Positions 546-45,876 of a DNA stretch of 64,000 nt are shown here, in pieces. Origin of the DNA: Thermodesulfobacteriota bacterium (lineage in GTDB: Bacteria > Desulfobacterota_D > UBA1144 > Nemesobacterales > UBA2774). Location: NCBI GenBank assembly GCA_965223335.1, contig OZ244991.1:324137-388136 (forward strand), read 5' to 3'. Numbering within the stretch: the first letter of the stretch is position 1; the number at the start of each line of letters is the position of its first letter. Both the position numbers and the translations under genes were made by a program. Below the pieces are notes generated by a model that did not search any database, was not told where the DNA came from, and was given only the letters and a program-made list of their open reading frames with translations.

Positions 546-568
546 TCTATTTTCTCCTAACTCCCATT

Positions 569-2452: not shown

Positions 2453-2478
2453 TATTCGGATTTTAAATACTCTTAATA

Positions 2479-3141: not shown

Positions 3142-3291
3142 ATGCTTAAACCTCCTTCATTTTTTATAGGGTTAATTAGAGGCAAGCTGAATGCCATTTG
3201 AGATATATTATTTAATATCAGGGAGTTAGCGAAGAAAATATTAGAAATCACAAAGAAATAACAACAAATATTGTCATAAAATACGACACCA

Positions 3292-7040: not shown

Positions 7041-7415
7041 AGATAGATACCTCCTTAAAATTTTATTCAACATTATATCAAGCAACATCCATGCCATCAC
7101 TTGACTGTATGTAACCAATTATAATCATTGAATATAATCAATATGAGAAACTACAAAACAACAAGTTGTGAACCAATTTGGTAATGCTCAACGACAAAAA
7201 TTGTCATACGATAAGACATGACAATGAAGTATGTGAAAGTTTTAATATTGGTGAACTGCAGCACTTGACGCAACACCTCAACATCATTGATTAATACTTG
7301 ATATAGAGTGATAGAATTATGTCTTACAAGAAAGTGTCAGAATTTGCAACATGTAAGACGCGCCCGTAACTTTACCTCAGCACAACCTCAACCTAGAGCA
7401 AATTTCTTTTTTCAA

Positions 7416-30882: not shown

Positions 30883-32394
30883 CTAAAACCTGAGCTGAAA
30901 ATCAAATAGGTAGCTTATGCGAGCTACATCGGTTGAGGGACCCGACATTGGGAGCTGGACCGCAAATCCTGGGCTGTACTTTTTCCAGAGCCTAATACCG
31001 GATGTAAAGAAGTAATCGTTTTTCCCGAATGTGTCTGCAGTTAGCTGCGAATAACCGTTAAACTCGGCAAACAGAACAGGTGATGTAGGTATGGGGATAT
31101 TGGCACCCACAGCAGCATGGTATTTAAGTCTAAACTCAAAGTTGTTGCCCTCTAGGTTCCTTGCGTTAAATACCCAGTCAGTCCCCACATTGGCCTGTAA
31201 GCTAAGGAAATTCTTCCACACAGCCCCCGACAGATAAGGGCTAAACGTAGTCGCACCCTTTAGGTGCAGGGGATAATTCCTCCTAAACAATATTACGGTC
31301 TGAAGCCTATCGATGTTGTCTTTATACGCAGTGGGTAATATCAGATCGGTCCCCGCAGTTAATACAAAGTTACGCGACTTTGCAAGCATGTGCTTGCCAC
31401 CGATCAGCAAGTTGGCAAACTCAAAACCGTCATTTATGACCTCTTCCCCTATAACCACACTGTTTACACCAGCCTGTTGAATCTGAACATATAGTCCCCA
31501 GAGAGTGTTCTTAGACGGCAGGTCGACACGTACAGAGTAAAAAATAAACTCACCATGATCTAGAGACCGCTTTAGGTTAACTACCTCAAGGTCTGCAGTT
31601 GCCCTCCCAATAGGGATTGGCTCTTCAAAGAACAGAGGATATGAGAGCATTATCGCCTCGGATTTATTGGGTGTGAAATCAATCGGGCCGCTTATCGACA
31701 TAAAACTCTTGGCAAGCGGGTTATAAACCCCGAACTGCCTGTCCTTAATAAAGTTACGCATCGGGTTTACAATATGGCCCGCAATCTTTGCCGGCACAAA
31801 ATCTGTCTCGACCAGCCAGTCAGAGGCCTCATAAAACACAAACCCCATAGGTGCACCTATGAGTGGTGTGAATATAAGGTCTTTCATCGACGGGGTCTCC
31901 ACTATGCCCTCTACCGTGTACTCAAACAAAGTGCTCATTAGAACAGAGCCCAGAGCCGAAACCCACTCGTCATGCCCGAGGGTCCGGTACCACAGGTAGT
32001 ACTGTGCGCCTATAATTGGATGCACCACGAAATTTGTGAAAGTTGAGTCCCCATCATCCCATTCGGGCCACTTTGTAATATTGTCCCACCAATCAGATAA
32101 CGATGTATTGAATATCCTGCTGTTTTTGTTCCTGACATAAAAGAACCTCACAGCCCATAACCCTAGATACCCAGCCCCTGTGTCGCGCAAAAATTCCTTT
32201 GTGCCGAGTGACTGCTTCGCAGCCTCCGAGAGTTCCGTATTATCGTTGCTATTATTTGTTAGCTCCGAGGCAAGCGAATACCGCGAATGCGAGTATTCCA
32301 GCAGATCATCCACCGTAATGTCATTGGCTGCAAATGCCACGCATTCCGATACCAATAGAAATAGTATTGCCAATATTAGAGAAATAGACCTCAC
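30883..32394 (-). CDS. Outer-membrane protein: DUF3943-like domain + beta-barrel (paralog 2)
   Basis: About 50% identical by eye to 29188-30726. C-terminus is LFDFQLRF. The start is set to GTG 32394 (AGGAGAG upstream), immediately before the signal peptide. The track ORF extends to TTG 32466. Confidence 0.65.
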   Translation of the reverse strand: MRSISLILAILFLLVSECVAFAANDITVDDLLEYSHSRYSLASELTNNSNDNTELSEAAKQSLGTKEFLRDTGAGYLGLWAVRFFYVRNKNSRIFNTSLSDWWDNITKWPEWDDGDSTFTNFVVHPIIGAQYYLWYRTLGHDEWVSALGSVLMSTLFEYTVEGIVETPSMKDLIFTPLIGAPMGFVFYEASDWLVETDFVPAKIAGHIVNPMRNFIKDRQFGVYNPLAKSFMSISGPIDFTPNKSEAIMLSYPLFFEEPIPIGRATADLEVVNLKRSLDHGEFIFYSVRVDLPSKNTLWGLYVQIQQAGVNSVVIGEEVINDGFEFANLLIGGKHMLAKSRNFVLTAGTDLILPTAYKDNIDRLQTVILFRRNYPLHLKGATTFSPYLSGAVWKNFLSLQANVGTDWVFNARNLEGNNFEFRLKYHAAVGANIPIPTSPVLFAEFNGYSQLTADTFGKNDYFFTSGIRLWKKYSPGFAVQLPMSGPSTDVARISYLFDFQLRF

Positions 32395-32488
32395 TCTACT
32401 CTCCTGCGTAAATAGAGATATATTATATAAACAATTTAGATCAAATTGGGGATGAAGGATACACAAAAAGCATCTTATTTAAAGAGTA

Positions 32489-35061: not shown

Positions 35062-35580
35062 CTATTTGGGCTTGTTCACAACCTTATAGTCCTCAATGAA
35101 CAGGTCAACAAGCTCGCCCAAGGCCTTGCCCACACACTCGTTTAAAACCTCGGGGCTACAGGAAAACAGCTTGCCCACACTCCACGTAGAGCCCGTGGTG
35201 GATATACTCTCGCCCAGTTTTGTCCCCATTATTACTATGGCCCGGTTAAGGTCTATATCTATGTACACAGCGTAGTAATTCTCAGACTCCGATTTACTCG
35301 CAATCACCTTTATGTACAGGTAAGAACCCCCAAATACATTAAACCACTTCCTCTCCTCGAGCACATTAATATCGGCGTCGCGCAGTCTGTTTTCGACAAA
35401 TTGCCTTAGCCCCTCTTTGCTAAGCCCGTCTGCAGAGGCTGAGTCAGAGATCTCTTCCAGTATCACCGCGGTTCCCGTAACCCCCCTAAGCGTAGCACTG
35501 CTCGGGAGTGGGTATGCCAGCTTCGCACACAGACCAAAAACAAACAAGCTCATCAGTAGCATTGAGAACAGTTTTATCAT
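35062..35580 (-). CDS. Hypothetical secreted protein
   Basis: 172 aa with signal peptide MIKLFSMLLMSLFVFGLCAKLA. 137 nt downstream of the giant gene on the same strand. Confidence 0.5.
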   Translation of the reverse strand: MIKLFSMLLMSLFVFGLCAKLAYPLPSSATLRGVTGTAVILEEISDSASADGLSKEGLRQFVENRLRDADINVLEERKWFNVFGGSYLYIKVIASKSESENYYAVYIDIDLNRAIVIMGTKLGESISTTGSTWSVGKLFSCSPEVLNECVGKALGELVDLFIEDYKVVNKPK

Positions 35581-35717: not shown

Positions 35718-38700
35718 TTACTTCTTTCGCGAGAAATCATGGAGTAGGTTTAGGTTTGTGGTTACGAGGTCGTGTACATCGGGAAAATCCTTTTTCGTAA
35801 AAACCTTAAGCGCCTCGTTATAAGCCTCGATCGCTTTTTCGCAATTCCCAGCCTTGTTTTGAATCTCTGCAAGTGTGGTATATGCCCCACCTATGTTGTT
35901 TTGGGTAGTCGCGTACTGCATGGGGTATTGCTCTATTGTGTAGATAATAAGTGCTGTTTCGTAGGCCTTAATCGCTTTTTTACAGTTCCTAGCCTTATCC
36001 TCCGATTCGGCCAAGGTCCTATAAACCACACCTAAGTTGTTCTGTGTACCCGCAAATTGAATCGGAAACTGTTGAATGGAGCGCACCTTGAGTGCTTCCT
36101 CGTATGATTTTATGGCCTTTTTGCAGTTTGCAGTCTTCTCCTCTACATCGGCAAGGGTCCTAAATGCTGTGCCCAGGTTGTTTTGTGTCGAGCCGTACTG
36201 TACCGGGTATTCATCCTTGTTATACACCCTAAGTGATTCGTTATAGGCTTTTATAGCCCTTTTACAGTTCTTGCCCTTATCCAGGGCTTCGGCAAGGGTC
36301 CTGTAAATGACCCCAATGTTGTTCTGCGTGGCAGCATACTCAACCGGGTATTCGTTTACGGTGTAGAATTTGAGTGTTTGTTCATAAGCCTTTATGGACC
36401 TCTTGCAATTGTTCTCGGTATCCTCATACTCAGCAAGGCTCTTATAGAGTGCTCCAAGGTAATCCTGAATAGTAGCATACTCGTCTGGGTAACTCTGGAG
36501 GCTGTAATAATTTGTGCATAACTCATATGCCTCACACGCTTTTTTACAGTTTGCTATTCGGTCCTCCCATTCTGCAAGCGCCCTGTATATATGGCCTATG
36601 TTCCTGTTAATAAGCCCGTAGTCTGCGAGCGAGGTCTCGGGGGTATAGACCTTCAATGCGTCTGTGTACTCAGAGATGGCATTATGATAGTTCTCTTTTA
36701 CCTGCTCGCCGTTCTCGGCAAGTTTACCGTATGCTATTCCGGTATATTTTTTTATCTCTCCATACTCCAGCGGGTTCGTGCTTCTTTTATAAATTTTAAG
36801 CGACTCACGATACGCATTCGTGGCCCTGATATAGTTGGCAATCTCTCCCTCGACTTCTGCAATAATGCTCGAGGCAAGCCCCACATTCTTTTGCACGGCA
36901 CCGTATTCTGCGGGGAATTTATCAGGATCGAAAACTTGGAGCGTCAGCATATAAGAGGTCACAGCCTCTTTATAATGTGTGATCTCTCCCTCAATCTCAG
37001 CAAGTGTGATTAAGATGTCGCCAATATTTTTTTGAATTACACCGAACACAAACGGCGATTTGCCGACTGAGTAAATCTTTAGCGATTCGGTGTAGCAATC
37101 GATCGCCTTTCTCATTTTCTTAATGTCGCTATCGGTCTTGGAATACATATGATACGTATAGCCCAGGTTACGATATACCAACCCGTACTGTGTAGGGTAG
37201 TCGGCTCTATTATAGACCTTTAACGACTCCTCATAGGATTTGATCGATTTCCTAAAAGCATTGGGTTTGGCCCCTTCCTCTGCGATCTTTCGGTATGAAT
37301 TTGCAATCTTATAATGTGCGTCTGCAAATTCTTCGGGCGAGGTCTCAACATCGAGTGATTTGAGCGCATTTTCGTGGAACTGAATAGCTTCTTTGGGATC
37401 CGCAAACTCCTCTGACTCCGCTTGATCGGGCATCTCGGCACTATCGCGCACAGCCTGTTCGGTTGTTTTCTCTACTGTAATGGTCTTTGTGTCTGAAGCA
37501 GCTTTTTTCCTCCTCCGCTCTTTTACCTCTTTTAATTCCACAACTTCTGCAATCTCTTCTTTTTTTGTTTCCGTTTCTTTTTTGTCGGGTGAAGGGATTT
37601 TTGCGGCACGTAAAGATGCTACGGCTTCTTTGGCTTTGTTGTAGACCGACTCGGCATCGTTGTGCAAATCAGGGCTGTCCTTTTTGTTATAAACCAATAG
37701 CGCCTGCCGAGAGGCCTTGAGTACATTGTTGTAGAGTGTCGGGCTTTGATCGAGTTCGGCTAATTGAAGGTAGAGGTTTGAGAGTTTGTACTGCACAAAT
37801 CCATAATCTTCAGGTGAGTTATCTAATGTATAGAATTCCAGTGCTTGCTCGTAGGAACTGATGGCTTTTTGAATATTATTTTTGGAACTCTCTGTTTTCA
37901 GGAGCTCAGTATAGGCAGTGCCTAGGTTCTTATGGGCACACGCAAACTCCTCTGGGCTATCCTCGAGGTTATATCTCTCGGCGGCTTTCTCATAGAATAC
38001 TATATCATTGCCTTCCTCAGACAACACATTTTCCAAGACAATAGGTTCTTCCTCATTCTTGACTTCTTCTGCACGTAACTGCTCGAGGACCTCGTTTGAG
38101 TTCGTTATCCACTCGCGAACTTTTGCCAGTGTATCCTTGTCGGTAATTACTTTTTCCGCTTCCTCAAATGCATCGAGAGCCTTGGTGTGGTTCTCCTCCT
38201 TTTTATCCTCATCCGTGATTGAGCAGAGTGCTATCCCCAGCATAAGTTTTGTCAGTGCATACTCTTGTTCATCCTTTTGGTCCTTATAGTGCTTGAGTGC
38301 CGAGTTATAGTACTCAACGGCCTCATTGTACTTGGAGTGATCTTTATCGCTTGAGGCCTGTGCGCTGTAGGCATCGCCAAGGCGCTTTGAGATCGATGCG
38401 AACCTAAGCGGCATAACTTTTGGGTCTAGTAGTTCCAGTGTTTCTTTTAAAATAGCGAGCTCTTTATCCGGGTCTTTATGGGCCGTTTCAGAGATTAATA
38501 CGAATCTTTCTATGATTTGATCATAAAGCTCAGGGGCATGTTTCTCTAGATTGTGGGTGTTGTAAGCACCAAGTGCATCACGCACATGGCCAAGAGCTGC
38601 CTCGTTATCGTTTGAGTCCTGCGAGCTTTCGGAAAGTCCTAAATAAGCCACTGTGAGCTTTTTAGATACCGAGTCGTAGGGCTCGGGCTCTTTGTCATGG

Positions 38701-41700
38701 TCTAGGTTTTGAAGCACGCTATTGTAATATTCCACGGCCTCGATCAGGTTCGAAGACCTGTCCTTGCTATCGGTATGATTTACGAGTGTATCGGCTAATC
38801 TAAGCTCTAGCCCCCCATAAATCTTAGCCATTGTGCTTTTATCACAAAGAGTTAAAAGTACTTTATAGATCCCGATCTCTTTAACCCTGTCTTTGTGCTC
38901 AACTGAAGAAATCGCATCGCTAAAATCACTTAGATCTTGATCAATCCCCATTTTTTCGGGATCTAGCCCGGCTGATGCAAATGCTTGATATGCATTGTTA
39001 AAGGCTTTAACAGAGTTTATTAAATCCTTGGGCTCACCCTTCTGCTTAGCACAAAGTGCATGTGCCCGCCCAAGCCTACTTTGAGTAAGACCAAAATCCC
39101 CGGGGTTGTGGTCTTCCGTAACATACCCGCTAACGCTTTCGAGATACCTAACGGCATCGGCAGCTTTGTTGTCTCTCAGACACTGCTCTGCCACACGCAT
39201 ATGCAGGTTTCCCAGATTCGTTTTGATACTATCAATATCATCAGCAGCTTCGGCTTCGAGAACCTTATTGTAGTATCCAACAGCACTCGTAAAGTTGTCG
39301 TGTTCACCACTCGTTTCGAATAACTCTTTTTGAATATCCCCTAGTCGCGTGCAAAGTGCGCTATGCTCAACCGCCATCTGAGACTCATCCGTAATCTCGA
39401 GCACACTCTCCAAGAGATCAGTTGAATGCTCTCCTGCTTCTATCTCTTTCTCTAAAACGGTTTTAACAAGACTCTTTATGCCTTCGATTACCTCTTGATA
39501 TTTCTCTGGCTCGTTTTCTTCACTGTACACACTTAGTGAATTCTTATACGCTTCAATTTCGTTTGTTATGTAATCGGATTTAGTATTTAGCTCATTTAGC
39601 AACCCGTAACTATGAGCGATCTGTTTTTGTATCTGGGCGTACTGCTCGGGGTATTTTTCCTGTGTATAGAGGTTTAGTGCCTCGCCTAATGCATCGATAC
39701 CCCCGGTTAATTTGTCTATATCCTTTGCGGACTCCCCTTCCGATAACAACAGTTCCCCTATTATTTTCGTTATCTCTGCATAGTCCTCGGGGTGATCACT
39801 CGAATTATAGAACTCGAGTGCGTCCCGATACCTTGATACTGCTGAGTCTAGGGACTCATCCCGACCGAGTTGGGCAGCAGCTTCAACATAAAGATCCCCC
39901 ACCACACGGTTCACATTTCCCAGCGTTTGCTCTTTGGTGTCTTTAGCCTTGGCTGCGGTGGCTGCCTCATAGAACTGAATGGCACTTAGGTAATCATCTT
40001 TATTCCCTGACTCCCTGGCAAGATCGGTGTATAGGGAACCGAGCTTGATTTGCACCGATTCCAGGTTCTCGCACATAGCATCCACATCAAATTTTTCCAA
40101 GATCTGTTTGTAAAGCAAAACCAGATCATCACTCTCAAGTTCAAGCCCGTTTAACAATTCCACTACCCGTTTTAGTGCAAACGAGATATTCTCCAATCCA
40201 ACTTCATTTTTATCCGCCTCATATGCCACAAGCGCACCGTGGTATGCGTTTAGCGCGTCTGATATGTGGCTCTTATCCTTAGTTCCTTTGGCTTGGTTGG
40301 AGTAAGAGTCCCCAAGGGCCTCTTGAATAGATGCGTAGTTGTCCGGGTGATTGTCTCTATCAAATATCTCAAGGGCCCTAACAAGATACTCCCTGCCCTG
40401 TTCGTATGCATCTTTTTCGACATGGCTTATCCCCGCTTCCAGCAAGGCGTTGCCGAGGCTCTTCTGAGACTCAGTATGCTCTGCACTATCCAAATCCTTA
40501 GCACTTAAATCCCGCGCCTTTTCATAATGCTCCACAGCCCGCTCACTGTTACTCGCGAACTCCTCTTGTCGTGATAGCGTAATATAGGCGTTGCCCATCC
40601 GCAGATGAATACCGGCATGCTCTAGGGGTTGATCACTATCAGCGTAATAATCGAGGCAGTCCGTAAAATTCTCGAGCGCTAATTTATATCTTTCTACATC
40701 ATTTTCCTTCTCGGCAATTAATGCATAGATAGAGCCGATCTCTTTTTTAAGCAGTGCATATTCATCAGGATAATCGTCCTTTCCGTAAACTTTAAGGGCT
40801 TCCTCGTAGGCCTCTATGGCCATTGTACTGTTTTCCACTAAGCCCTTCTCGTCCTCAAACAATCGGTACACGTCACCCAGCTTCTTTAGCGTTGCCGCAT
40901 ACTCAACCGGGGAGTGCTCAATATCGTAGCTCTTTAGTGCTTTTTCATAGAAGCTAATCGCTTGGTAGGGATCGCTTAACTCTGTTTCCCCAACCAGTTC
41001 ATAGCTCTTAGCCAAGAGTTTCTGCAATTCCATGTGCCCTGCGGGGTATTTATCTTCGGTAAACACACCTAGTGATTCCTCAAGATACTGGGCAACTTGA
41101 GTGAGATTAACATCTTGCTCTCGATCCTCATACAATTCCAGATACGCATAACCTAAACCCATATTGATAAACCCATAATTAAGAGGCGAGGCATCTTTAT
41201 CGCATTGCTCCAAAGCGGCTTTTAGCTCTGATATTGCCGCCTCATAGCTATGAGTCTTATGTTCGTGCTCAGCTATGGATAGATAAGCAATGCCAAGATT
41301 CTGCTTTAGCTGCATCCGTGTTGCTTTCAGAGTGTCCTTGGGTTGGGAGCTATCTAACTCTTTATACAGATTAAGAGCTTCTTTGTAACCCTCGGACTCT
41401 TGAGTGCACCAAGCACGCATCAGATGCGTAGAAGCAATATCCATTTCAATCGAACTCTGTTTAGACTCCGCAGCGACCTCGGAATAGATCTCTTTTGCAT
41501 CACTGAGTGCAGTCAAAGAGGTTTTGAAACCCTCCTCTGACGAACACTCTGTTGCAGCGCTTCGTGTATCGAGCCCGATATTTCTATTTAATAACGCTTC
41601 TCGGTACCTATATCCCTCGGCACTGTAAACATCCAAAGAAGATTTGTAGTAATCCAGAGACTTATTAATCCCCTCACTCTCATGGCCGTCTGATAATGAT

Positions 41701-44700
41701 GAGTTCACTACACCGAGGCTATTTTGCGCCCGGGCCCGATCAAGCTCGAACCCCTTATCCTCGTATATATCGAGACTCTGTTCCAGCATCCCATGTGCTT
41801 CCTCGAGATGTTCGGTAGAACTCTCGAGCACAGATAAACCATGTTTTGAGATTGCGAGGTTTGACAAAATGTCGGCTCTCAGCAATTCGTCGTTACCGCT
41901 TTTCACGCTGTTTAGTGCTTGGCTAAGCAGTTGATCAGCCAACTGTGTATCCTTAGAGGACGCTTCTATGGACGATAGGAAATTATGAGCTGCACCCAAA
42001 TTACTCTTTACCGTAGCGCACTTACGTGGATAGCCCTCTATCTCGGGAGTATCTAGAACTTCGTTTAGAATCTCTATGGACTTTTTACAGTTTTTTACAC
42101 TGTCCTCGCAATCGGCCAGTGTTAGGTATGCGGCACCCAGGTTATTACGAATCTTTAGATGGTTAATCACACTATCACCAGAGTCATACTCCCTAAGGGC
42201 CCTCTCGTAGGCCTGAATGGCCTTTCTACTGTTCTTTGCCCTATCCGTTTTTTCGGCCAATGACCTGTAGATATTGCCCAGATTGTTTAGTATCAGAGCC
42301 GAGTATTTTTCGTTGCCCTCTCCATCCAATACTCTAAGAGCATCCTCATATGAGGCCTCGGCCATATCTATTGACTTGGTCTCTTTAGAGATTCTTGCAA
42401 TGTATGAGTAATTTAGGCCCAGTTTGCACTTAAGCTCCCCGTAATCCTCGGGAAAATCGCTCTCGGTAGAGATCTCGAGCGCGGATAAATAGTAGTCAAT
42501 CGATTTCTCAAACTGCTCCAAATCCAGTTTGTATATACCCAGATTTCTATAGATATCGCCTAAATTACTGCAGATCATTGCGTATTGGAGAGGATAATCA
42601 CCAAAAGTATAAAATTTGAGAGCGTTCTCATAGCATTCAATAGCGTCATCAAAATTCCCAGATTCGCTTTGAGCACGGTAAAGCTTTTGTAAAGCAAGGC
42701 CCATGTTGAATTGGATCATGCCAAATTTATCAGGGTAGTCCTCCGAGACATAAACCCTAATTGCCTCTTTATATGAATCTATAGCTTTACTCGAGTTGTG
42801 GGCCTCATCCTCAACATCCGCAAGTGTGCTGTATGCAACACCCAGATTGTTATGGGTCATTGCATAATCCAATGGTGCCTCCTCTATGTTCCTTATCTTA
42901 AGGGATTCTTCATAAGCCTTAATAGCCCTCTTTGAGTTCTCCGCAGCACCGTGTAGTTCGGCAAGCGTGCTGTAAGCGTTGCCCAAATTGTTGTAGGTAG
43001 TCGAGTATTCTTGGGGATATTTGCCAAGGGTATATATCTCTAAAGCCTCACGATAACACCCAATGGCCTTAGTGCAATTAGCGCTATCGTTCTCAATCTG
43101 AGCCAGCATGTCATATGCGGCACCCATATTATTTAGGAGAGATGCATATTCAGCGGTCGATTTATTTTTCTTATAGTAGTTGTATGCAGTGGTATATGAT
43201 TTGATAGCGTCCACACAATTTGCACCCTCACCCTCATACTCGGCTAAAGTCCTGTAGGCATCGCCAAGCAGTTTTGACACAAATGCGTACTGCTCTTTAT
43301 TTTTAAGAGCCTTGTACTGATGCATCGCCTTTTTGTAGGAATCGATTGCTTGCGAGATGTTACTTGCAATGGGTCCGTTGTGTTCAAGCAAGAGGTAAAT
43401 ATCACCTAAGGTTCTTAGTAGCCCTGCACTCTCTTCTTTTTCATCCAAAGCATTAAAAACATCTAAAGCGCTGTTTAGCACCTCGATTGACTCTATTAGC
43501 TGATTCTCTCCCCCGGTGTCTTGTTCACGCGAGAGTTTAAACTGTGCAATCCCCAAGTCTCTGGTTATGGTTGCAAAATCCAATGGATAGTTGTCTTTGT
43601 TAAAATAAGTTAGAGCATCACTAAAGTCTTCAAGTGCAGTCTTTGCGTAATCATTATTTGGTTCCGCCTCTACAAGTGAGATGTGCACATTGCCTTTATT
43701 TCTTTTGATGTCTGCGCATTCGTACGGATTATTACCGGTGATATAAAACTCCAGAGCACTATCGTATGCCGCGAGCGCATTGTTGTAGTTCTCAACCGGG
43801 TTCTCTGCCAACGCCAGCGTTGTAAACGATAGGGCTAGGTTTTGGTTTATTATTGCGTTTATCATAGGGTCTAAGTCACTGGACAATGCGGATTTGTAGT
43901 AAGTAATAGCTTTTTTACAGTTCCTAGTTCTATTGCGGTCAAAGCCTTGTATGGTGTGAGCAAGACCCAAATTGTTATTTATATGAGTGTGAATTGCGGG
44001 GAATTGTTCTTTTGTAAAATAGCCTAGTGCATTCTCGTAATGCTCAATTGCAATATCACAGTTTTCACTCCTGGAACTATACGCAGCCAAAAGCACATAG
44101 AGATCAGCAATATTGCGTCTCGTATTAGACACTACGTCCTCGGCGTGGTCTTCGTTCTCTATAATTCTCGTGAGCAGCCCTAATGCTTTACGATACAATT
44201 TAATTCTTTGCTCGGCACTACAGTCTTCTTCTTTCGCAAGTTCTCTATAGAGATAGCCCAAAAAACTGTTTATTTGCCAAGGCATATCGCTTTTAATTCT
44301 GCTCTCTATGCCCTTTAGCCTTTTTACTATCTTATCCAGCTGATCTACGTTAAAACCTTTTTCATCAAAGTAGATCTCGGACAGTTCGAATGCCAAGTCG
44401 CTGGATTGATTGGTCTTATTCTTGTTTATATTCTTAACCGTTGATAAAGCGTCAACCAGATAGACCTCGATGGTATGGCGTATATATTTAGGCAAATAAT
44501 GGGATATACGCTCGTATGGGCTACCCTGTTCGCTTGATCTAAGGTCGCTATCGACAGTGATTGTTGGGAAGCTGTCGGTCTGGGTTAAGTTAGAGATAAA
44601 GGTTTTTGTTAAACCGGTATCATCACTTTGTTGCGTATGCGATTCGTCTGAGCTAAGAGCCGTTTTTTCATCCTGAATAGTAAGTACGGATGTGTTGTTG

Positions 44701-44996
44701 CCCCTAAGAAAACCGTACTCATATAAAAGTGCCGGGCTATAACCGTCTAGCACCAAAATCCCCAAAGCCGTGTCGGTCGCAAGTTTTTCAAACCGCTCCC
44801 TAAATTGACTGGGGCTAGTATTTTTTTCGGTTATGGATTCAACCTTAAACCCATACGACGACAGGACATCTCTAAGAGGGTTTACAATTTCATTTACATA
44901 CTCTACGTCGCTATGGTCGGGGTGTACGATAAGGCAGGGAATCTCGCCTTGAGTAATCAGCTTGTTTATTGCATTTAGACTTCGGTTCGCTTTCAT
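35718..44996 (-). CDS. Giant (3092 aa) TPR-like repeat protein with N-terminal Rossmann/TIR-like domain
   Basis: Uninterrupted 9279-nt ORF. Most of the length is ~47-aa helical-hairpin repeats with consensus N(C/S)xKAIxxYEEALK(I/V)Yxx..YP..YA.TQNNLG.AY..LA. No signal peptide, TM segment or convincing Walker A seen. Confidence 0.9.
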   Translation of the reverse strand: MKANRSLNAINKLITQGEIPCLIVHPDHSDVEYVNEIVNPLRDVLSSYGFKVESITEKNTSPSQFRERFEKLATDTALGILVLDGYSPALLYEYGFLRGNNTSVLTIQDEKTALSSDESHTQQSDDTGLTKTFISNLTQTDSFPTITVDSDLRSSEQGSPYERISHYLPKYIRHTIEVYLVDALSTVKNINKNKTNQSSDLAFELSEIYFDEKGFNVDQLDKIVKRLKGIESRIKSDMPWQINSFLGYLYRELAKEEDCSAEQRIKLYRKALGLLTRIIENEDHAEDVVSNTRRNIADLYVLLAAYSSRSENCDIAIEHYENALGYFTKEQFPAIHTHINNNLGLAHTIQGFDRNRTRNCKKAITYYKSALSSDLDPMINAIINQNLALSFTTLALAENPVENYNNALAAYDSALEFYITGNNPYECADIKRNKGNVHISLVEAEPNNDYAKTALEDFSDALTYFNKDNYPLDFATITRDLGIAQFKLSREQDTGGENQLIESIEVLNSALDVFNALDEKEESAGLLRTLGDIYLLLEHNGPIASNISQAIDSYKKAMHQYKALKNKEQYAFVSKLLGDAYRTLAEYEGEGANCVDAIKSYTTAYNYYKKNKSTAEYASLLNNMGAAYDMLAQIENDSANCTKAIGCYREALEIYTLGKYPQEYSTTYNNLGNAYSTLAELHGAAENSKRAIKAYEESLKIRNIEEAPLDYAMTHNNLGVAYSTLADVEDEAHNSSKAIDSYKEAIRVYVSEDYPDKFGMIQFNMGLALQKLYRAQSESGNFDDAIECYENALKFYTFGDYPLQYAMICSNLGDIYRNLGIYKLDLEQFEKSIDYYLSALEISTESDFPEDYGELKCKLGLNYSYIARISKETKSIDMAEASYEDALRVLDGEGNEKYSALILNNLGNIYRSLAEKTDRAKNSRKAIQAYERALREYDSGDSVINHLKIRNNLGAAYLTLADCEDSVKNCKKSIEILNEVLDTPEIEGYPRKCATVKSNLGAAHNFLSSIEASSKDTQLADQLLSQALNSVKSGNDELLRADILSNLAISKHGLSVLESSTEHLEEAHGMLEQSLDIYEDKGFELDRARAQNSLGVVNSSLSDGHESEGINKSLDYYKSSLDVYSAEGYRYREALLNRNIGLDTRSAATECSSEEGFKTSLTALSDAKEIYSEVAAESKQSSIEMDIASTHLMRAWCTQESEGYKEALNLYKELDSSQPKDTLKATRMQLKQNLGIAYLSIAEHEHKTHSYEAAISELKAALEQCDKDASPLNYGFINMGLGYAYLELYEDREQDVNLTQVAQYLEESLGVFTEDKYPAGHMELQKLLAKSYELVGETELSDPYQAISFYEKALKSYDIEHSPVEYAATLKKLGDVYRLFEDEKGLVENSTMAIEAYEEALKVYGKDDYPDEYALLKKEIGSIYALIAEKENDVERYKLALENFTDCLDYYADSDQPLEHAGIHLRMGNAYITLSRQEEFASNSERAVEHYEKARDLSAKDLDSAEHTESQKSLGNALLEAGISHVEKDAYEQGREYLVRALEIFDRDNHPDNYASIQEALGDSYSNQAKGTKDKSHISDALNAYHGALVAYEADKNEVGLENISFALKRVVELLNGLELESDDLVLLYKQILEKFDVDAMCENLESVQIKLGSLYTDLARESGNKDDYLSAIQFYEAATAAKAKDTKEQTLGNVNRVVGDLYVEAAAQLGRDESLDSAVSRYRDALEFYNSSDHPEDYAEITKIIGELLLSEGESAKDIDKLTGGIDALGEALNLYTQEKYPEQYAQIQKQIAHSYGLLNELNTKSDYITNEIEAYKNSLSVYSEENEPEKYQEVIEGIKSLVKTVLEKEIEAGEHSTDLLESVLEITDESQMAVEHSALCTRLGDIQKELFETSGEHDNFTSAVGYYNKVLEAEAADDIDSIKTNLGNLHMRVAEQCLRDNKAADAVRYLESVSGYVTEDHNPGDFGLTQSRLGRAHALCAKQKGEPKDLINSVKAFNNAYQAFASAGLDPEKMGIDQDLSDFSDAISSVEHKDRVKEIGIYKVLLTLCDKSTMAKIYGGLELRLADTLVNHTDSKDRSSNLIEAVEYYNSVLQNLDHDKEPEPYDSVSKKLTVAYLGLSESSQDSNDNEAALGHVRDALGAYNTHNLEKHAPELYDQIIERFVLISETAHKDPDKELAILKETLELLDPKVMPLRFASISKRLGDAYSAQASSDKDHSKYNEAVEYYNSALKHYKDQKDEQEYALTKLMLGIALCSITDEDKKEENHTKALDAFEEAEKVITDKDTLAKVREWITNSNEVLEQLRAEEVKNEEEPIVLENVLSEEGNDIVFYEKAAERYNLEDSPEEFACAHKNLGTAYTELLKTESSKNNIQKAISSYEQALEFYTLDNSPEDYGFVQYKLSNLYLQLAELDQSPTLYNNVLKASRQALLVYNKKDSPDLHNDAESVYNKAKEAVASLRAAKIPSPDKKETETKKEEIAEVVELKEVKERRRKKAASDTKTITVEKTTEQAVRDSAEMPDQAESEEFADPKEAIQFHENALKSLDVETSPEEFADAHYKIANSYRKIAEEGAKPNAFRKSIKSYEESLKVYNRADYPTQYGLVYRNLGYTYHMYSKTDSDIKKMRKAIDCYTESLKIYSVGKSPFVFGVIQKNIGDILITLAEIEGEITHYKEAVTSYMLTLQVFDPDKFPAEYGAVQKNVGLASSIIAEVEGEIANYIRATNAYRESLKIYKRSTNPLEYGEIKKYTGIAYGKLAENGEQVKENYHNAISEYTDALKVYTPETSLADYGLINRNIGHIYRALAEWEDRIANCKKACEAYELCTNYYSLQSYPDEYATIQDYLGALYKSLAEYEDTENNCKRSIKAYEQTLKFYTVNEYPVEYAATQNNIGVIYRTLAEALDKGKNCKRAIKAYNESLRVYNKDEYPVQYGSTQNNLGTAFRTLADVEEKTANCKKAIKSYEEALKVRSIQQFPIQFAGTQNNLGVVYRTLAESEDKARNCKKAIKAYETALIIYTIEQYPMQYATTQNNIGGAYTTLAEIQNKAGNCEKAIEAYNEALKVFTKKDFPDVHDLVTTNLNLLHDFSRKK
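35740..37410 (-). repeat. C-terminal block of about 12 well-conserved ~141-bp (47-aa) coding repeats
   Basis: Consecutive units KNCKRAIKAYNESLRVYNKDEYPVQYGSTQNNLGTAFRTLADVEE, ANCKKAIKSYEEALKVRSIQQFPIQFAGTQNNLGVVYRTLAESED and so on. The DNA shows the same period, but copies are diverged. Confidence 0.8.
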
Positions 44997-45151
44997 TTAT
45001 CTGATTATATAGCGCAAAACAATTTCCATTCAACTATTAATTATACACAGGGGGTGGCAATACAAAATTAAAGAATTACTAATTTTTACAGCTAGTTACA
45101 CGGCACGAAGAGAACAAATATCAGGGGTAGTTTGGAACATAAAACTACATA

Positions 45152-45184
45152 GAAGCGGGGTTATGAGTATCCGAATCCCGCTTC
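45152..45184 (-). promoter_or_regulatory. Hairpin directly 3' of the aptamer (candidate expression platform/terminator)
   Basis: RNA GAAGCGGGAUU..AACCCCGCUUC forms an ~11-bp stem, followed by UAUGUAGUUUUAUGUU. Confidence 0.45.
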
Positions 45185-45280
45185 GGCAACCCAGCCGCCG
45201 ACTAGTGCTTATCCAAGCACCTTAGGCCTGTGGTTTTGCGTCCCATCTTTTCAGATGGTTTGCCCCTTCGTTCCGGGACC
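45181..45280 (-). promoter_or_regulatory. c-di-GMP-I (GEMM-I) riboswitch aptamer
   Basis: The minus-strand RNA ..GGGGCAAACCAUCUGAAAAGAUGGGACGCAAAACCACAGGCCUAAGG...GGCUGGGUUGCCGAAG matches the remembered Vc2 aptamer core block by block: GGGCAAACC, GAAA-capped P2, GGGACGCAAA, GGCCUAA, GGGUUxCCGA. Confidence 0.8.
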
Positions 45281-45298
45281 ACCAACTCCCTTATACAA

Positions 45299-45327
45299 AC
45301 CTTATAGCTAGTTTCTATTTGTGTCAA
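45299..45327 (-). promoter_or_regulatory. Sigma70-type promoter driving the riboswitch leader
   Basis: Minus strand: TTGACA (45327-22), 17-nt spacer, TAAGGT (45304-299). The predicted TSS is about 10-15 nt before the aptamer. Confidence 0.45.
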
Positions 45328-45347: not shown

Positions 45348-45379
45348 AAAAAAACTACCCCCTGACCCCGGTCGGTCGG
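45348..45379 (-). terminator. Candidate terminator of the zinc-ribbon gene
   Basis: Minus-strand CCGACC-GACCGG-GGTCAGG hairpin (one bulge), followed by GGGTAGTTTTTTT. Confidence 0.4.
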
Positions 45380-45438: not shown

Positions 45439-45876
45439 TCAAACACCATCGACTTTTTTAAAGCACTTACTACAGAACTCGCTGCCGCTAACAATCTGGT
45501 TGCCGCACTCACACGTGCCCATTATTTCAGGTTTGGAAAGGGCTTTTAATCTCCCAAGCGCTTTTTGGGCATCCTGGTGTACAAGCTCGAGTTCCTCTCT
45601 GCATCTGTCGATCTCTTCATATATCTGCTCGATCTCCTTACATTTCTCCATTACACCGTCTTCGTTTATCTTGCCCTTATACTTGTACATCTTATAGACC
45701 AAATTCCCGACGGCCTCGGTACTTGTCCTTCTGCGTTTAGATAGGCTACGTATCCGGTTTTTTATTCTTATCACCCCATACGCCTCTTTAGACCTTATAT
45801 TTACAATCCTCAACCCCCTCCCAATACCTACCTTTATTTTGTCCAGTATCTCATTCGGTTCGTTTATATCTGTCAT
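45439..45876 (-). CDS. Hypothetical coiled-coil protein with C-terminal zinc-ribbon
   Basis: 145 aa with a basic/coiled-coil middle. C-terminal CECGNQIVSGSEFCSKC (CxC..CxxC). Confidence 0.6.
   Translation of the reverse strand: MTDINEPNEILDKIKVGIGRGLRIVNIRSKEAYGVIRIKNRIRSLSKRRRTSTEAVGNLVYKMYKYKGKINEDGVMEKCKEIEQIYEEIDRCREELELVHQDAQKALGRLKALSKPEIMGTCECGNQIVSGSEFCSKCFKKVDGV

What the first reader, a model, noticed from the sequence alone, without database searches (positions are those of the whole stretch)
35718..45327. A second-messenger riboswitch wired to a 3092-aa cytoplasmic TPR scaffold: candidate undescribed c-di-GMP-controlled system
As far as I know, described GEMM-I regulons are dominated by pili, flagella, adhesins, chitin-binding proteins, GGDEF/EAL enzymes and, in Geobacter, cytochromes. 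Here the only gene directly downstream of the aptamer on the same strand is a giant protein with no signal peptide and no TM segment. It has a small N-terminal Rossmann/TIR-like domain followed by about 50-60 TPR-like repeats. A small secreted protein (35062-35580) lies 137 nt further on.

The unit looks self-contained. A terminator-like hairpin ends the upstream gene (45348-45379). Then come a dedicated promoter, the aptamer, a hairpin and the ORF. Coupling the cost of a 9.3-kb transcript to c-di-GMP level suggests a lifestyle-switch scaffold or a conflict/defence-type sensor. The function is not inferable from sequence.
Basis: inference. Interest (0 to 1): 0.8.

Follow-up and report, generated by a model that had tools for sequence, protein, structure and literature searches.

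The report
c-di-GMP riboswitch gating giant repeat protein
A genuine c-di-GMP-sensing RNA switch with its own conserved promoter sits in front of a 3092-residue cytoplasmic repeat protein that starts with a degenerate TIR/nucleosidase-like domain; the same pairing recurs in about twenty related uncultured deltaproteobacterial genomes, so it looks like a real, undescribed output of c-di-GMP signalling whose function is still unknown.

Summary
RF01051 matches window 45274..45182 (-) at 72.4 bits. It lies 186 nt upstream of a 3092-aa ORF (44996..35718, -).

Anchoring on the upstream 145-aa gene recovered 40 metagenomic loci. Together with one locus found separately (L007), 21 loci carry a GEMM-I aptamer at the same place. 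Wherever enough sequence follows, it precedes an orthologous gene of 680 to more than 3190 aa.

Conserved features:
- an invariant TTGACA promoter
- the G20/A47/C92-equivalent nucleotides
- 11 covarying base pairs
- a hairpin that competes with P1, which suggests a c-di-GMP ON attenuator (inferred)

The protein has a roughly 135-aa flavodoxin-like N-domain, remotely related to Cap12/Pycsar TIR and nucleoside deoxyribosyltransferase/DNPH1 folds. About 60 repeats of 47 aa follow. It has no TM segment, no signal peptide and no P-loop.

The putative catalytic Glu is kept in the window but replaced in most riboswitch-linked orthologs. The locus sits among housekeeping genes. A scaffold or sensor role is therefore more likely than an NADase defence effector.

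Orthologs without the riboswitch have a sigma-54 promoter, and in one lineage an adjacent HD-GYP response regulator. A weak sigma-54-like site near the window's ATG is a caveat.

Verdict: a new cargo for a known riboswitch class; interest is moderate.

The parts
45439..45876 (-). Upstream anchor gene 'p145': a 145-aa coiled-coil protein with a C-terminal CxC...CxxC zinc ribbon. It is not part of the switch. It is the conserved left border of the module.
   Evidence: ORF. No Pfam or NCBIfam hit. Homologs at 42-57% identity in 40 metagenomic loci, present whether or not the module is there. Alignment A4.
45348..45379 (-). Imperfect GC-rich hairpin followed by a U7 run (45354..45348), after the p145 stop codon. 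A possible weak terminator.
   Evidence: Sequence. Fold gives -17.9 kcal/mol with z-score -0.76. Not called by the consensus terminator scan.
45299..45327 (-). Dedicated sigma-70-type promoter. The -35 element TTGACA is at 45327..45322. TATAAG at 45306..45301 gives a 15-nt spacer; reading the -10 as TAAGGT at 45304..45299 gives a 17-nt spacer.
   Evidence: Sequence. TTGACA-N15-TATA[AG][AG] lies at the same distance from the aptamer in all 20 loci examined, from 37% to 62% GC. Function is inferred, not shown.
45182..45274 (-). c-di-GMP-I (GEMM-I) aptamer. An extended P1 pairs UCCCG (45278..45274) with CGGGA (45180..45176).
   Evidence: RF01051 at 72.4 bits. In the 21-sequence alignment A5, 24 pairs are predicted and 11 have compensatory changes. 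The G20-, A47- and C92-equivalent columns are invariant. The custom CM scores 92.9 bits.
45136..45184 (-). Expression platform. Hairpin GAAGCGGG (45184..45177) / CCCGCUUC (45159..45152), followed by UAUGUAGUUUUAUGUU (45151..45136). The 5' arm overlaps the 3' strand of P1. Putative attenuator.
   Evidence: Hairpin alone -12.7 kcal/mol; hairpin state -54.2 versus P1-forced -42.7 kcal/mol. Equivalent hairpins with different, complementary sequences occur in the other lineages. The U tract is not canonical, so terminator function is inferred.
44997..45135 (-). Long untranslated spacer between the hairpin and the start codon. No obvious Shine-Dalgarno sequence. Role unknown.
   Evidence: The leader from aptamer to ATG is 225-335 nt in all orthologous loci.
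45004..45033 (-). Proximal promoter-like sites. A sigma-70-like TTGAAT-18-TATAAT spans 45033..45004. It overlaps a sigma-54-like TGGAAATTGTTTTGC at 45028..45014. A transcript from here would bypass the riboswitch.
   Evidence: The minimal sigma-54 pattern is not enriched in the window (12 found, 8.7 expected). A much better TGGCA-N6-TTGC[AT] is conserved at the same place in L026, L028, L049, L005 and the AT-rich clade.
44592..44996 (-). N-terminal domain of the giant protein (residues 1 to about 135). Four beta-alpha units in a flavodoxin-like fold. Motif LVLDGYSPALLYEYGFLRG, with the putative catalytic Glu at residue 93.
   Evidence: 76 representative homologs, best E 5e-28. 18 of 41 sequences scanned (40 homologs plus the window's domain) hit PF10137 and 6 hit PF05014. 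AF2 model pLDDT 79. Foldseek finds DNPH1, BcmB, NDT, ThsB and TIR domains at TM about 0.5. The window's own domain hits no Pfam family even at E<=10.
35742..44099 (-). Array of about 60 TPR-like repeats with a 47-residue period (residues about 300-3085). A charged, probably disordered linker lies near residues 2490-2560. The C-terminal 400-700 residues are the best conserved part among orthologs.
   Evidence: TPR_12 at 202.9 bits and SNAP at 108.7 bits. Autocorrelation peak at lag 47. Motif spacing in multiples of 47. 38-49% identity to orthologs over the C-terminal part. No DNA-level tandem repeat.
35718..44996 (-). Whole giant ORF, 3092 aa, predicted cytoplasmic.
   Evidence: Orthologs of 680, 1347, 1358, 1520, 1522, 1583, 2807 and at least 3185-3191 aa sit behind the same riboswitch.
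35062..35580 (-). 'p172': a small protein with an N-terminal signal-like hydrophobic segment, 137 nt downstream. Probably co-transcribed.
   Evidence: A homolog (44-53% identity) directly follows the giant gene in all 7 orthologous riboswitch-type loci where the gene end is seen (L007, L022, L041, L045, L047, L052, L055). It is absent after the riboswitch-less L026 gene and present alone in L058. No family hit. The single-sequence AF2 model is unusable, pLDDT 50.

Best explanation
This is a conserved chromosomal module of an uncultured deltaproteobacterial (Desulfobacterota-type) lineage.

Proposed working:
1. A dedicated sigma-70 promoter (TTGACA at 45327..45322) starts a roughly 290-nt leader.
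2. The first structured element of the leader is a canonical c-di-GMP-I aptamer.
3. Without ligand, the segment just 3' of the aptamer (GAAGCGGG) pairs with CCCGCUUC. This forms a hairpin followed by a U-rich stretch and stops transcription.
4. With c-di-GMP bound, the same segment is held in the extended P1 helix (UCCCG/CGGGA). The hairpin cannot form, and RNA polymerase reads on into the 9.3-kb gene and probably into p172. This makes it an ON switch.

The product is a cytoplasmic solenoid of about 60 repeats of 47 residues. It carries an N-terminal TIR/nucleoside-deoxyribosyltransferase-like domain. In this orthologous group that domain most likely serves as a self-association or nucleotide-binding module, not as an obligatory NADase. 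The protein most likely acts as a large interaction scaffold or sensor made only when c-di-GMP is high (the sessile or aggregated state).

Shown: the aptamer, its conservation and covariation, the conserved promoter motif, the synteny, the domain architecture.
Inferred: promoter activity, the terminator function of the hairpin, the ON logic, co-transcription of p172, the scaffold role.
For: Aptamer:
- RF01051 at 72.4 bits.
- In alignment A5 of 21 aptamers, 11 of 24 predicted pairs show compensatory changes. The three ligand-contact-equivalent columns are invariant G, A and C.

Association with the gene:
- The aptamer sits between a p145 homolog and an ORF with the same N-domain plus a TPR array in 21 other loci.
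- The flanking MFS and HisRS proteins in these loci are only 43-68% identical to the window's.
- The aptamer is much better conserved (mean column identity 71%) than the protein it precedes (N-domain about 25-35% identical).

Promoter:
- TTGACA-N15-TATAAG-like motif at a fixed position in 20 of 20 loci.

Platform:
- The 5' arm of the hairpin overlaps the P1 3' strand in the window.
- Other lineages have equivalent but sequence-different arms: GAGGUUGGGA/UUCCACCUUC, GAAGUGGGGACA/UGUCCCUCUUU, GUCGGG/CCCGAU, AAUGGGAUAUU/AAUGUUCCAUU.
- The ligand-free model favours the hairpin by 11.5 kcal/mol.

Independent c-di-GMP link:
- Three riboswitch-less orthologous loci have a divergent response regulator with intact HD...HHExxDGSGYP motifs next to the gene.

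Protein:
-.

Against an enzyme-only role:
- The putative catalytic Glu is Q, F, T, S or K in 14 of the 17 riboswitch-linked orthologs aligned at that position.
Against: - The hairpin is not followed by a canonical U tract (4 U in the first 8 nt), and the terminator scan did not call it.
- In ungapped stem searches, many loci did not beat shuffled controls. The platform covariation rests on RNAfold output and inspection, not on a statistical test.
- About 155 nt of leader with unknown role lie between the hairpin and an ATG that lacks a Shine-Dalgarno sequence.
- A sigma-54-like and a sigma-70-like site lie 8-37 nt upstream of the ATG. Clear sigma-54 promoters occupy that position in relatives. 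Part or all of the expression could therefore bypass the riboswitch.
- Five orthologous loci work without any riboswitch.
- No expression, ligand-binding or protein data exist.
- The window's N-domain keeps the Glu, so catalysis is not excluded here.
Confidence: 0.6

Rival explanations
1. Defence or conflict effector. The giant protein is a TIR-family NADase or nucleotide N-glycosidase. Its TPR array senses an invader or a signal, and c-di-GMP licenses its expression. This would be an RNA-level counterpart of c-di-GMP-activated TIR-STING (Cap12).
For: - The N-domain family is linked through intermediates to PF10137 CAP12/Pycsar TIR (18 of 41 sequences scanned) and to PF05014.
- The best PDB profile hit is Cap12 at the shared RDNVVFEFG motif, but it is weak (E 0.11).
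- Fold matches include ThsB, BtpA and plant TIRs.
- The window protein keeps the Glu in YEYG.
- The module is present or absent at one chromosomal site among relatives, and array length varies from 680 to more than 3190 aa.
- TIR plus TPR sensor architectures are known in Thoeris-type systems (bioRxiv 10.64898/2025.12.03.692087).
- Cap12/Pycsar TIRs are oligomerisation-activated NADases (PMC13142454).
Against: - The Glu is replaced in 14 of the 17 riboswitch-linked orthologs aligned at that position.
- The window's domain hits no TIR Pfam model even at E<=10.
- PADLOC gives only a 13.9-bit generic TPR hit.
- The neighbours are HisRS, an MFS transporter, a glycosyltransferase, fumarase and Omp85. 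No defence or mobile-element genes are present.
- Gene order is conserved across deep divergence, which is unusual for defence islands.
- GC content matches the flanks.
Confidence: 0.15
2. The riboswitch is real but is not the main controller of the giant gene in this genome. The gene is transcribed chiefly from the proximal sigma-54 or sigma-70-like promoter near 45004-45033. The upstream promoter-aptamer-hairpin unit mostly yields a short terminated RNA, which is either a minor read-through input or an sRNA or c-di-GMP sponge.
For: - A conserved sigma-54 consensus TGGCAT-N5-TTGC[AT] lies 35-77 nt upstream of the ATG in the riboswitch-less orthologs L026, L028, L049 and L005, and in the riboswitch-bearing AT-rich clade L056/57/60/61. 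The window has TGGAAATTGTTTTGC with the same spacing at -32.
- A sigma-70-like TTGAAT-18-TATAAT (10 of 12 matches) overlaps it.
Against: - The window's -24 element deviates from consensus (TGGAAA against TGGCAC), and the minimal pattern is at chance frequency in the window.
- A start there would leave a leader of about 8 nt or less.
- The GC-rich riboswitch clades have no such site at all. In them the riboswitch-led transcript is the only visible route.
- Strict co-conservation of the aptamer with this gene in 21 loci is hard to explain if it did not regulate the gene.
Confidence: 0.15
3. OFF switch or non-terminator mechanism. c-di-GMP binding represses the gene, or the hairpin acts through Rho, RNase or long-range translational control rather than intrinsic termination.
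For: - The U tract after the hairpin is poor.
- The leader is long (about 155 nt after the hairpin) and untranslated, which suits Rho-dependent attenuation.
- The clade of L047 and L052 has a second, canonical terminator further downstream (CCGGGAAUUUUCCCGG followed by UCUUUUU in L052; a variant stem in L047). This shows that platform designs differ between lineages.
Against: - The overlap between the P1 3' strand and the hairpin 5' arm means that ligand binding disfavours the hairpin in every lineage. That gives ON logic if the hairpin is the negative element.
- By inspection, in L047/L052 the freed 3' arm (UGUCCC) can pair with the 5' arm of the second terminator (GGGA). This again gives ON logic.
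Confidence: 0.1

Closest known systems
c-di-GMP-I (GEMM-I) riboswitches, Rfam RF01051 (for example Vibrio cholerae Vc2 and Geobacter representatives)
   Same: - Full-length match well above the gathering score.
- Two-hairpin architecture with a GAAA tetraloop.
- G, A and C at the three ligand-contacting positions.
- Location in the 5' leader of a same-strand gene, with a P1-competing hairpin.
   Different: - The cargo. The papers held in the library do not mention TPR or TIR-like giants as GEMM-I targets.
- The leader is unusually long.
- Some relatives also have a sigma-54 promoter between the switch and the ORF.
c-di-GMP-I-GGC variant, Rfam RF03167
   Same: Most orthologous aptamers score slightly better on this model (63.6-73.8 bits against a gathering score of 59), probably because it models P1 and a similar overall sequence.
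   Different: The model consensus has ACGCGAA. All 22 aptamers found here, including the window's, have ACGCAAA. By my reading that is the A47-equivalent position, so they are canonical and not the GGC variant. The meaning of the name 'GGC' rests on my own knowledge; I could not retrieve the paper that describes the variant.
TIR-STING / Cap12 and Pycsar TIR effectors (Pfam PF10137)
   Same: - Flavodoxin-like TIR-type fold.
- Shared ...RPNV.FE.G.L.G... motif in the wider family.
- A functional link to a cyclic nucleotide: Cap12 is a c-di-GMP-activated NADase (my own knowledge), and PF10137 TIRs are oligomerisation-activated NADases (PMC13142454).
   Different: - Here c-di-GMP acts on the mRNA, not on a STING or other protein sensor domain.
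- The window's domain does not reach any PF10137 score.
- The putative catalytic Glu is not conserved among orthologs.
- The partner is a 2900-aa repeat array.
- There is no CD-NTase or cyclase operon.
Nucleoside 2'-deoxyribosyltransferase / DNPH1 / BcmB N-glycosidases (PF05014 superfamily)
   Same: - Best structural matches: DNPH1 and BcmB at TM 0.50-0.56 and E about 1e-3.
- 21 of 32 short stand-alone relatives hit PF05014 weakly.
- The Glu-x-Gly motif after strand 4 corresponds to the catalytic nucleophile motif of these enzymes (my own knowledge).
   Different: - Sequence identity is 13-18%.
- No hit reaches the gathering threshold.
- The domain is fused to a giant repeat array.
- The Glu is often substituted.
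TIR- or effector-linked TPR sensor proteins (TPR-S; Thoeris ThsI) and bacterial STAND NB-ARC-TPR proteins
   Same: An N-terminal effector-like domain is followed by a long TPR_12-type array. Four family relatives hit PF20308 TPR-S. TPR is proposed as a ligand or sensor platform in ThsI.
   Different: - No P-loop NTPase and no Walker A motif.
- No partner TIR signal-producer gene.
- Repeat period of 47 aa.
- Size up to more than 3190 aa.
- Conserved housekeeping context.

Membership tests
c-di-GMP-I riboswitch (RF01051, GEMM-I) | Covariance-model score at or above the curated gathering score over the full model | tested here: met
   72.4 bits against 35, model positions 1-87 of 87, E 2.9e-12.
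c-di-GMP-I riboswitch (RF01051, GEMM-I) | Two hairpins (P2 with a GNRA tetraloop, and P3) maintained by compensatory changes | tested here: met
   RNAalifold on 21 orthologous aptamers predicts 24 pairs, 11 with double compensatory changes. The GAAA loop is invariant.
c-di-GMP-I riboswitch (RF01051, GEMM-I) | Ligand-contacting nucleotides G20, A47 and C92 (an A at position 20 marks c-AMP-GMP variants) | tested here: met
   Alignment columns 23 (G), 50 (A) and 102 (C) are invariant in A5. The mapping to Vc2 numbering is my own derivation. The role of the position-20 nucleotide in G-versus-A selectivity is stated in PMC9481103.
c-di-GMP-I riboswitch (RF01051, GEMM-I) | Binds c-di-GMP and changes expression of the downstream gene | not testable with these tools
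   This needs in-line probing or ITC plus transcription or reporter assays.
c-di-GMP-I riboswitch (RF01051, GEMM-I) | Expression platform whose alternative pairing involves the P1 3' strand | tested here: inconclusive
   The overlap of P1 (45180..45176) with the hairpin 5' arm (45184..45177) is seen directly, and analogous hairpins occur in other lineages. However, the U tract is non-canonical, and ungapped stem statistics are weak in many loci.
c-di-GMP-I-GGC variant (RF03167) | G instead of A at the A47-equivalent position (model consensus ACGCGAA) | tested here: not met
   The window and all 21 orthologous aptamers have ACGCAAA.
CAP12/Pycsar TIR domain (PF10137) | Profile score at or above the gathering score (24.7 bits) | tested here: not met
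   The window's N-domain and 7 riboswitch-linked orthologs give no hit even at E<=10. The link is only transitive: 18 of 41 sequences scanned hit it, best E 2.5e-7, and 17 of 32 short relatives hit it below threshold.
CAP12/Pycsar TIR domain (PF10137) | Catalytic glutamate conserved | tested here: inconclusive
   The Glu is present in the window (YEYG), L041, L045 and four of the five riboswitch-less orthologs (L053 has Cys). It is replaced by Q, F, T, S or K in the other 14 riboswitch-linked orthologs aligned. Equating this Glu with the catalytic residue is an inference from motif alignment to Cap12.
TIR / nucleoside deoxyribosyltransferase-like fold | Flavodoxin-like beta-alpha fold that superposes on solved members | tested here: met
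   The AF2 model has pLDDT 79 with four beta-alpha units. Foldseek probability is 1.00 with TM 0.45-0.56 to DNPH1, BcmB, NDT and ThsB, and 0.38-0.45 to BtpA and plant TIR domains.
TPR repeat proteins (PF13424 TPR_12) | Profile score above the gathering score; helical hairpin repeats | tested here: met
   202.9 bits against 30.1. The unit is 47 residues, not 34 or 42.
STAND NTPase-TPR proteins | Central P-loop NTPase (NB-ARC/NACHT) domain | tested here: not met
   No such Pfam hit. No Walker A motif anywhere in the 3092 aa.
Known anti-phage defence systems (PADLOC-DB) | Match to a defence-protein model and a location among defence genes | tested here: not met
   Only a 13.9-bit generic TPR hit at E 0.0063. 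The neighbours are housekeeping genes.

The most novel reading that the evidence does not exclude
The module is a previously unrecognised c-di-GMP output of sulfate-reducer-type Desulfobacterota. At high c-di-GMP the cell builds a megadalton-scale cytoplasmic solenoid. Its TIR/NDT-like head oligomerises or binds (and in some species cleaves) a nucleotide. The solenoid works with the secreted p172 partner to organise an aggregation, filament or envelope programme. The family as a whole is wired to c-di-GMP in two interchangeable ways: a riboswitch in some lineages, and sigma-54 plus an adjacent HD-GYP regulator in others. This would be a new class of second-messenger effector and an RNA-level parallel to TIR-STING.
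Probability: 0.2. Interest if true: 0.8.

Novelty: new variant of a known kind. Interest (0 to 1): 0.52.

Why it matters
c-di-GMP riboswitches are well understood as RNAs, but much of what they control is not. This case gives a deeply conserved and therefore clearly functional pairing between a canonical c-di-GMP-I aptamer and an uncharacterised family of giant cytoplasmic repeat proteins with a TIR/nucleosidase-like head. It occurs in a poorly studied group of anaerobic deltaproteobacteria, including contigs from the human oral metagenome.

It offers a concrete handle on the function of such giant TPR proteins: a ligand, a promoter and a predicted ON logic, all testable in vitro.

It also shows two alternative regulatory solutions for the same gene. 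One is the riboswitch. The other is sigma-54, in one lineage with an adjacent HD-GYP regulator.

Finally, it raises the question of whether a TIR-type domain has been repurposed from NADase to structural or sensor module.

If the protein proves to be only a generic scaffold, the result remains a useful extension of the GEMM-I regulon and no more.

Tried and rejected
1. The search for homologous proteins with the N-terminal 260 aa found nothing. With the whole protein at E<=1e-10 it also found nothing. The word index was swamped (8000 candidates), and the threshold I chose was too strict.
2. A genome-contig scan with the N-terminal 500 aa found no relatives. Alignment A2 was too diverse to give a search pattern. 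The closer alignment A3 found only one close genome, a Deltaproteobacteria MAG that is the same contig as L005, plus distant Acidobacteriota and archaeal members.
3. An exact-sequence look-up of the window's HisRS found nothing, so the source genome is not in the collection. The organism is therefore placed only loosely.
4. Sequence searches of the N-domain against PDB, Pfam, NCBIfam and PADLOC gave nothing direct.
5. The last word-indexed search, run with profile A2, returned only 32 short stand-alone relatives and not the TPR fusions.
6. p172 structure. The single-sequence model has pLDDT 50, so I ran no fold search.
7. I first searched for the sigma-54 pattern with the wrong spacing (N9) and corrected it to N8.
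8. The paper describing the RF03167 variant could not be retrieved.
9. Reading the aptamers as GGC variants or c-AMP-GMP riboswitches is rejected on the invariant G, A and C positions.
10. A STAND NTPase reading is rejected because there is no P-loop.
11. A recent repeat expansion is rejected because there is no DNA-level tandem repeat.
12. A mobile or defence island reading is considered unlikely. GC content equals that of the flanks, and synteny is conserved.

Full report
**Observation.**
- The only Rfam hit in the 64-kb window is RF01051 (c-di-GMP-I) at 45274..45182 on the minus strand. It scores 72.4 bits against a gathering score of 35 and covers the full model.
- The next same-strand ORF runs 44996..35718 and encodes 3092 aa.
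- Pfam sees only TPR-type families in it: TPR_12 at 202.9 bits and SNAP at 108.7 bits.
- There is no TM segment (maximum 19-mer hydropathy 1.26), no signal peptide and no Walker A motif.
- BLOSUM autocorrelation has a single sharp peak at a lag of 47 residues (0.565, against a background near -0.5, with a second peak at 94). The array is therefore about 60 units of 47 aa, not 34-aa TPRs.
- The repeats are old. Tandem Repeats Finder sees nothing at the DNA level.
- A 172-aa ORF with a hydrophobic N-terminus follows after 137 nt.
- GC content of the gene (0.43-0.46) matches its flanks.
Only the 'terminator' after the upstream gene is weak: an imperfect hairpin plus U7, z-score -0.76, not called by the scan.

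**Finding relatives.**
- Direct searches with the protein failed.
- An exhaustive phmmer search with the first 210 residues found 76 cluster representatives, best E 5e-28. They match residues about 12-135 and are mostly at the N-terminus of 500-1350-aa proteins.
- One of them, P0057 (1347 aa), lies on a contig (L007) with the same gene order as the window: MFS transporter, HEAT-repeat protein, a 143-aa protein, a gap, the TIR-like/TPR gene, then a 181-aa protein.
- The gap in L007 holds a GEMM-I-clan aptamer at 68.3 bits.
- I then used the small upstream gene (p145, a coiled-coil zinc-ribbon protein) as an anchor for the single metagenome scan. This gave 40 loci.

**Census.**
- A regular expression, Rfam on 14 loci (all 14 above gathering, 63.6-76.1 bits) and a purpose-built covariance model over 711 kb agree. 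There are 22 aptamers: the window, L007 and 20 of the 40 anchor loci. There are none elsewhere.
- Each aptamer lies about 90-245 nt downstream of the p145 homolog on the same strand.
- Each also lies 225-335 nt upstream of an ORF that starts with the same N-domain (hmmsearch E 1e-7 to 1e-33) and continues as a TPR array.
- Array-bearing ORF lengths are 680, 1347, 1358, 1520, 1522, 1583 and 2807 aa. Four are at least 3185 aa and run off the 10-kb flank.
- The wider neighbourhood is conserved: p488, MFS, HEAT, p145, [switch, giant gene, p172], HisRS, GT4, then two DUF3943 proteins. MFS and HisRS are 59-68% identical to the window's in most loci. MFS is only 43-44% identical in an AT-rich clade.
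- The pairing has therefore been kept over deep divergence.
- The pairing is not universal:
  - L026 and L028 have p145, a 750-nt gap and a 2917-aa ortholog, with no aptamer.
  - L005 (the same contig as L008), L049 and L053 have the ortholog behind a divergent regulator, with no aptamer even at E<=1.
  - Nine loci go straight from p145 to HisRS and lack the module.
  - L058 keeps only p172.
- More distant family members (L001-L006 apart from L005, and L009-L021) have no riboswitch.

**The RNA.**
- In the 21-sequence alignment A5, RNAalifold recovers the two GEMM-I hairpins. Eleven of 24 pairs show double compensatory changes.
- The columns I map to Vc2 G20, A47 and C92 are invariant G, A and C. 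The mapping is my derivation from the Vc2 sequence.
- PMC9481103 states that the position-20 nucleotide contacts the G or A base of the ligand and distinguishes c-AMP-GMP variants. The expected ligand here is therefore c-di-GMP.
- Many orthologs score slightly higher on RF03167 (the 'GGC' variant). All of them carry ACGCAAA where that model has ACGCGAA, so they are not that variant.
- An invariant TTGACA lies upstream, 15 nt before TATA[AG][AG]. In most lineages an AT-rich stretch precedes it. This holds in 20 of 20 loci across 37-62% GC. In the window it is at 45327..45322 and 45306..45301.

**Expression platform.**
- In the window the extended P1 pairs UCCCG (45278..45274) with CGGGA (45180..45176).
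- The same CGGG is part of GAAGCGGG (45184..45177). That segment pairs with CCCGCUUC (45159..45152) to form a -12.7 kcal/mol hairpin, followed by UAUGUAGUUUUAUGUU.
- The two structures are mutually exclusive. Without ligand the model favours the hairpin state, -54.2 against -42.7 kcal/mol.
- Other lineages have a hairpin at the same place with different but complementary arms:
  - L022 and L024: GAGG-UUGGGAUUG / CAGUUCCA-CCUUC
  - L047, L048 and L052: GAAGUGGGGACA / UGUCCCUCUUU
  - L007, L046 and L055: GUCGGG / CCCGAU
  - AT-rich clade: AAUGGGAUAUU / AAUGUUCCAUU
- I read this as a conserved attenuator and an ON switch. Two caveats apply. The U tracts are poor, so the scan does not call the window's hairpin. 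My ungapped stem search beats shuffles clearly only in some loci.
- In L047 and L052 a second, canonical terminator follows. By inspection the freed 3' arm could act as its anti-terminator, which again gives ON logic.

**A second promoter.**
- TGGCAT-N5-TTGC[AT], the sigma-54 consensus with correct spacing, lies 66-77 nt upstream of the ATG in the riboswitch-less orthologs L026, L028, L049 and L005.
- It also lies 35-38 nt upstream in the AT-rich riboswitch clade. There the spacer varies while both elements are invariant.
- The window has TGGAAATTGTTTTGC at 45028..45014.
- The window's site is weak. It occurs at chance frequency (12 found, 8.7 expected) and would leave almost no leader. I treat it as a caveat rather than a feature.
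- The GC-rich riboswitch clades have no such site.

**The protein head.**
- The N-domain family (alignment A2, 51 sequences) has the motif LGIVILDGxRPNVLFExGxLxGK.
- Of 41 sequences scanned (40 full-length homologs plus the window's domain), 18 hit PF10137 (CAP12/Pycsar TIR, best E 2.5e-7), 6 hit PF05014 (nucleoside deoxyribosyltransferase), 17 hit TPR_12 and 4 hit TPR-S.
- A set of 32 short stand-alone relatives aligns to A2 with hhalign probability 99.9%. They hit PF05014 (21 of 32) and PF10137 (17 of 32) only weakly.
- The A2 profile's best PDB hit is Cap12 (9lmq) at RDNVVFEFGLFLGR, at E 0.11.
- The AF2 model (pLDDT 79) has four beta-alpha units. It superposes on DNPH1, BcmB and NDT at TM 0.45-0.56, and less well on ThsB, BtpA and plant TIR domains at about 0.38-0.48.
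- The window's own domain and seven riboswitch-linked orthologs hit no Pfam family even at E<=10.
- I therefore file the domain as an unclassified family of the TIR/NDT-like fold, not as a member of PF10137.
- The Glu that aligns with the Cap12 and NDT catalytic motif is kept in the window (YEYG), in L041 and L045, and in four of the five riboswitch-less orthologs (L053 has Cys). In the other riboswitch-linked orthologs it is replaced:
  - Q in L007, L042, L046 and L055
  - F, T and S in L022, L023 and L024 respectively
  - K in L047, L048 and L052
  - S in the AT-rich clade
- A function shared by the orthologous group is thus unlikely to be catalysis. Self-association or nucleotide binding are the plausible conserved roles. 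This is an inference from what TIR-type domains do; PMC13142454 describes oligomerisation-driven activation of PF10137 TIRs.

**Other links.**
- p172 follows the giant gene in all 7 orthologous riboswitch-type loci where the gene end is visible. The gaps are 59-509 nt. It has no recognisable family.
- In the three riboswitch-less loci L005, L049 and L053, the gene is preceded by a divergent response regulator with intact HD and HHExxDGSGYP motifs. This is the HD-GYP class of c-di-GMP phosphodiesterases. It is a second, independent genomic association of this gene family with c-di-GMP.
- PADLOC gives nothing meaningful. The neighbours are housekeeping genes: HisRS, an MFS lactate-type transporter, fumarase, Omp85 and an ADH.

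**Interpretation.**
- Best explanation (0.6): a sigma-70 promoter drives a leader in which a canonical c-di-GMP-I aptamer gates read-through, ON at high c-di-GMP, into the giant gene and probably p172. The product is a cytoplasmic 47-aa-repeat solenoid. Its TIR/NDT-like head is mainly a non-catalytic association or binding module.
- Rival 1 (0.15): a TIR-type NADase or N-glycosidase defence effector licensed by c-di-GMP.
- Rival 2 (0.15): expression mainly from the proximal promoter, with the riboswitch a minor or separate input.
- Rival 3 (0.1): OFF logic or a non-terminator mechanism.

**Comparison and novelty.**
- The RNA is an ordinary member of a known class.
- What is new is the cargo and the conserved module around it: promoter, switch, giant TIR-like/47-aa-repeat protein and p172. 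Also new is the apparent interchange of a riboswitch with sigma-54 (and in one lineage an HD-GYP regulator) as regulatory inputs for the same gene.
- Full-text searches found no paper that joins GEMM or c-di-GMP riboswitches with TPR or TIR proteins.
- The source organism is not identified. The window's HisRS is not on record in the assembly collection. The nearest named genome with a family member is a groundwater 'Deltaproteobacteria bacterium' MAG. One orthologous contig comes from a human oral metagenome.
- I rate the finding a new variant of a known kind, with moderate interest. It is real, conserved and testable, but the function is still inferred.

Noticed in passing
L005 8631-9710 (-), L049 4678-5757 (-), L053 6439-7539 (-): In the three orthologous loci that lack the riboswitch, a response regulator with intact HD and HHExxDGSGYP (HD-GYP, c-di-GMP phosphodiesterase-type) motifs is transcribed divergently from the giant TIR-like/TPR gene. 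This is a second link between the gene family and c-di-GMP.
   Followed up: partly
L026 ~11131-11146; L028, L049 and L005 (66-77 nt upstream of the ATG); L056, L057, L060 and L061 (35-38 nt upstream); window 45014-45028 (-): A sigma-54-type promoter (TGGCAT-N5-TTGC[AT]) is conserved just upstream of the giant gene in riboswitch-less orthologs and in an AT-rich clade that has the riboswitch. The window has only a weak version (TGGAAATTGTTTTGC).
   Followed up: partly
window 35718-44996 (-): The 'TPR' array has a strict 47-residue period (about 60 units) rather than 34 or 42. The most regular blocks are residues 516-990 and 2631-3090. Adjacent repeats are 10-48% identical, and there is no repeat at the DNA level.
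   Followed up: yes
L048 10625-13845; L060 10791-20349; L051 3872-7658: In three orthologous loci the giant ORF is broken. L048 and L060 have two consecutive ORFs, and L051 has in-frame stops soon after the N-domain. These are either pseudogenes or assembly or frameshift errors.
   Followed up: no
window 45439-45876 (-) and 40 loci L022-L061: p145 is a conserved small protein of unknown family, with a coiled coil and a C-terminal CxCG...CxxC zinc ribbon. It is always next to a large HEAT-repeat protein (window 46187-48610, +) and is kept whether or not the riboswitch module is present. Some lineages have a 117-aa form without the zinc ribbon.
   Followed up: partly
L025, L027, L029, L030, L032, L034, L035, L036, L044 (module absent); L058 (p172 only): The switch, giant gene and p172 block is a presence/absence polymorphism at one fixed chromosomal site, between p145 and a convergent HisRS. 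L058 keeps p172 alone.
   Followed up: partly
window 29188-30726 (-) and 30883-32466 (-): Two adjacent paralogous proteins of about 520 aa each carry a DUF3943 domain, downstream of a GT4 glycosyltransferase. They are conserved in synteny with the module site.
   Followed up: no
window 3182-3196 (-) and 7082-7096 (-): Two good sigma-54 consensus matches elsewhere in the window: TGGCATTCAGCTTGC and TGGCATGGATGTTGC. I did not examine them further.
   Followed up: no
window 44997-45135 (-); the equivalent leaders in L040, L041, L042 and L045, and in L056-L061: The 150-200-nt stretch between the attenuator hairpin and the start codon contains blocks conserved within clades. Examples are GTTTGCC.ATA..CCGAAA.CGG in GC-rich loci and GAGGTTGGGCTTAAACTTAAAGTG in the AT-rich clade. 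Their role is unknown; they could be a second regulatory element.
   Followed up: no
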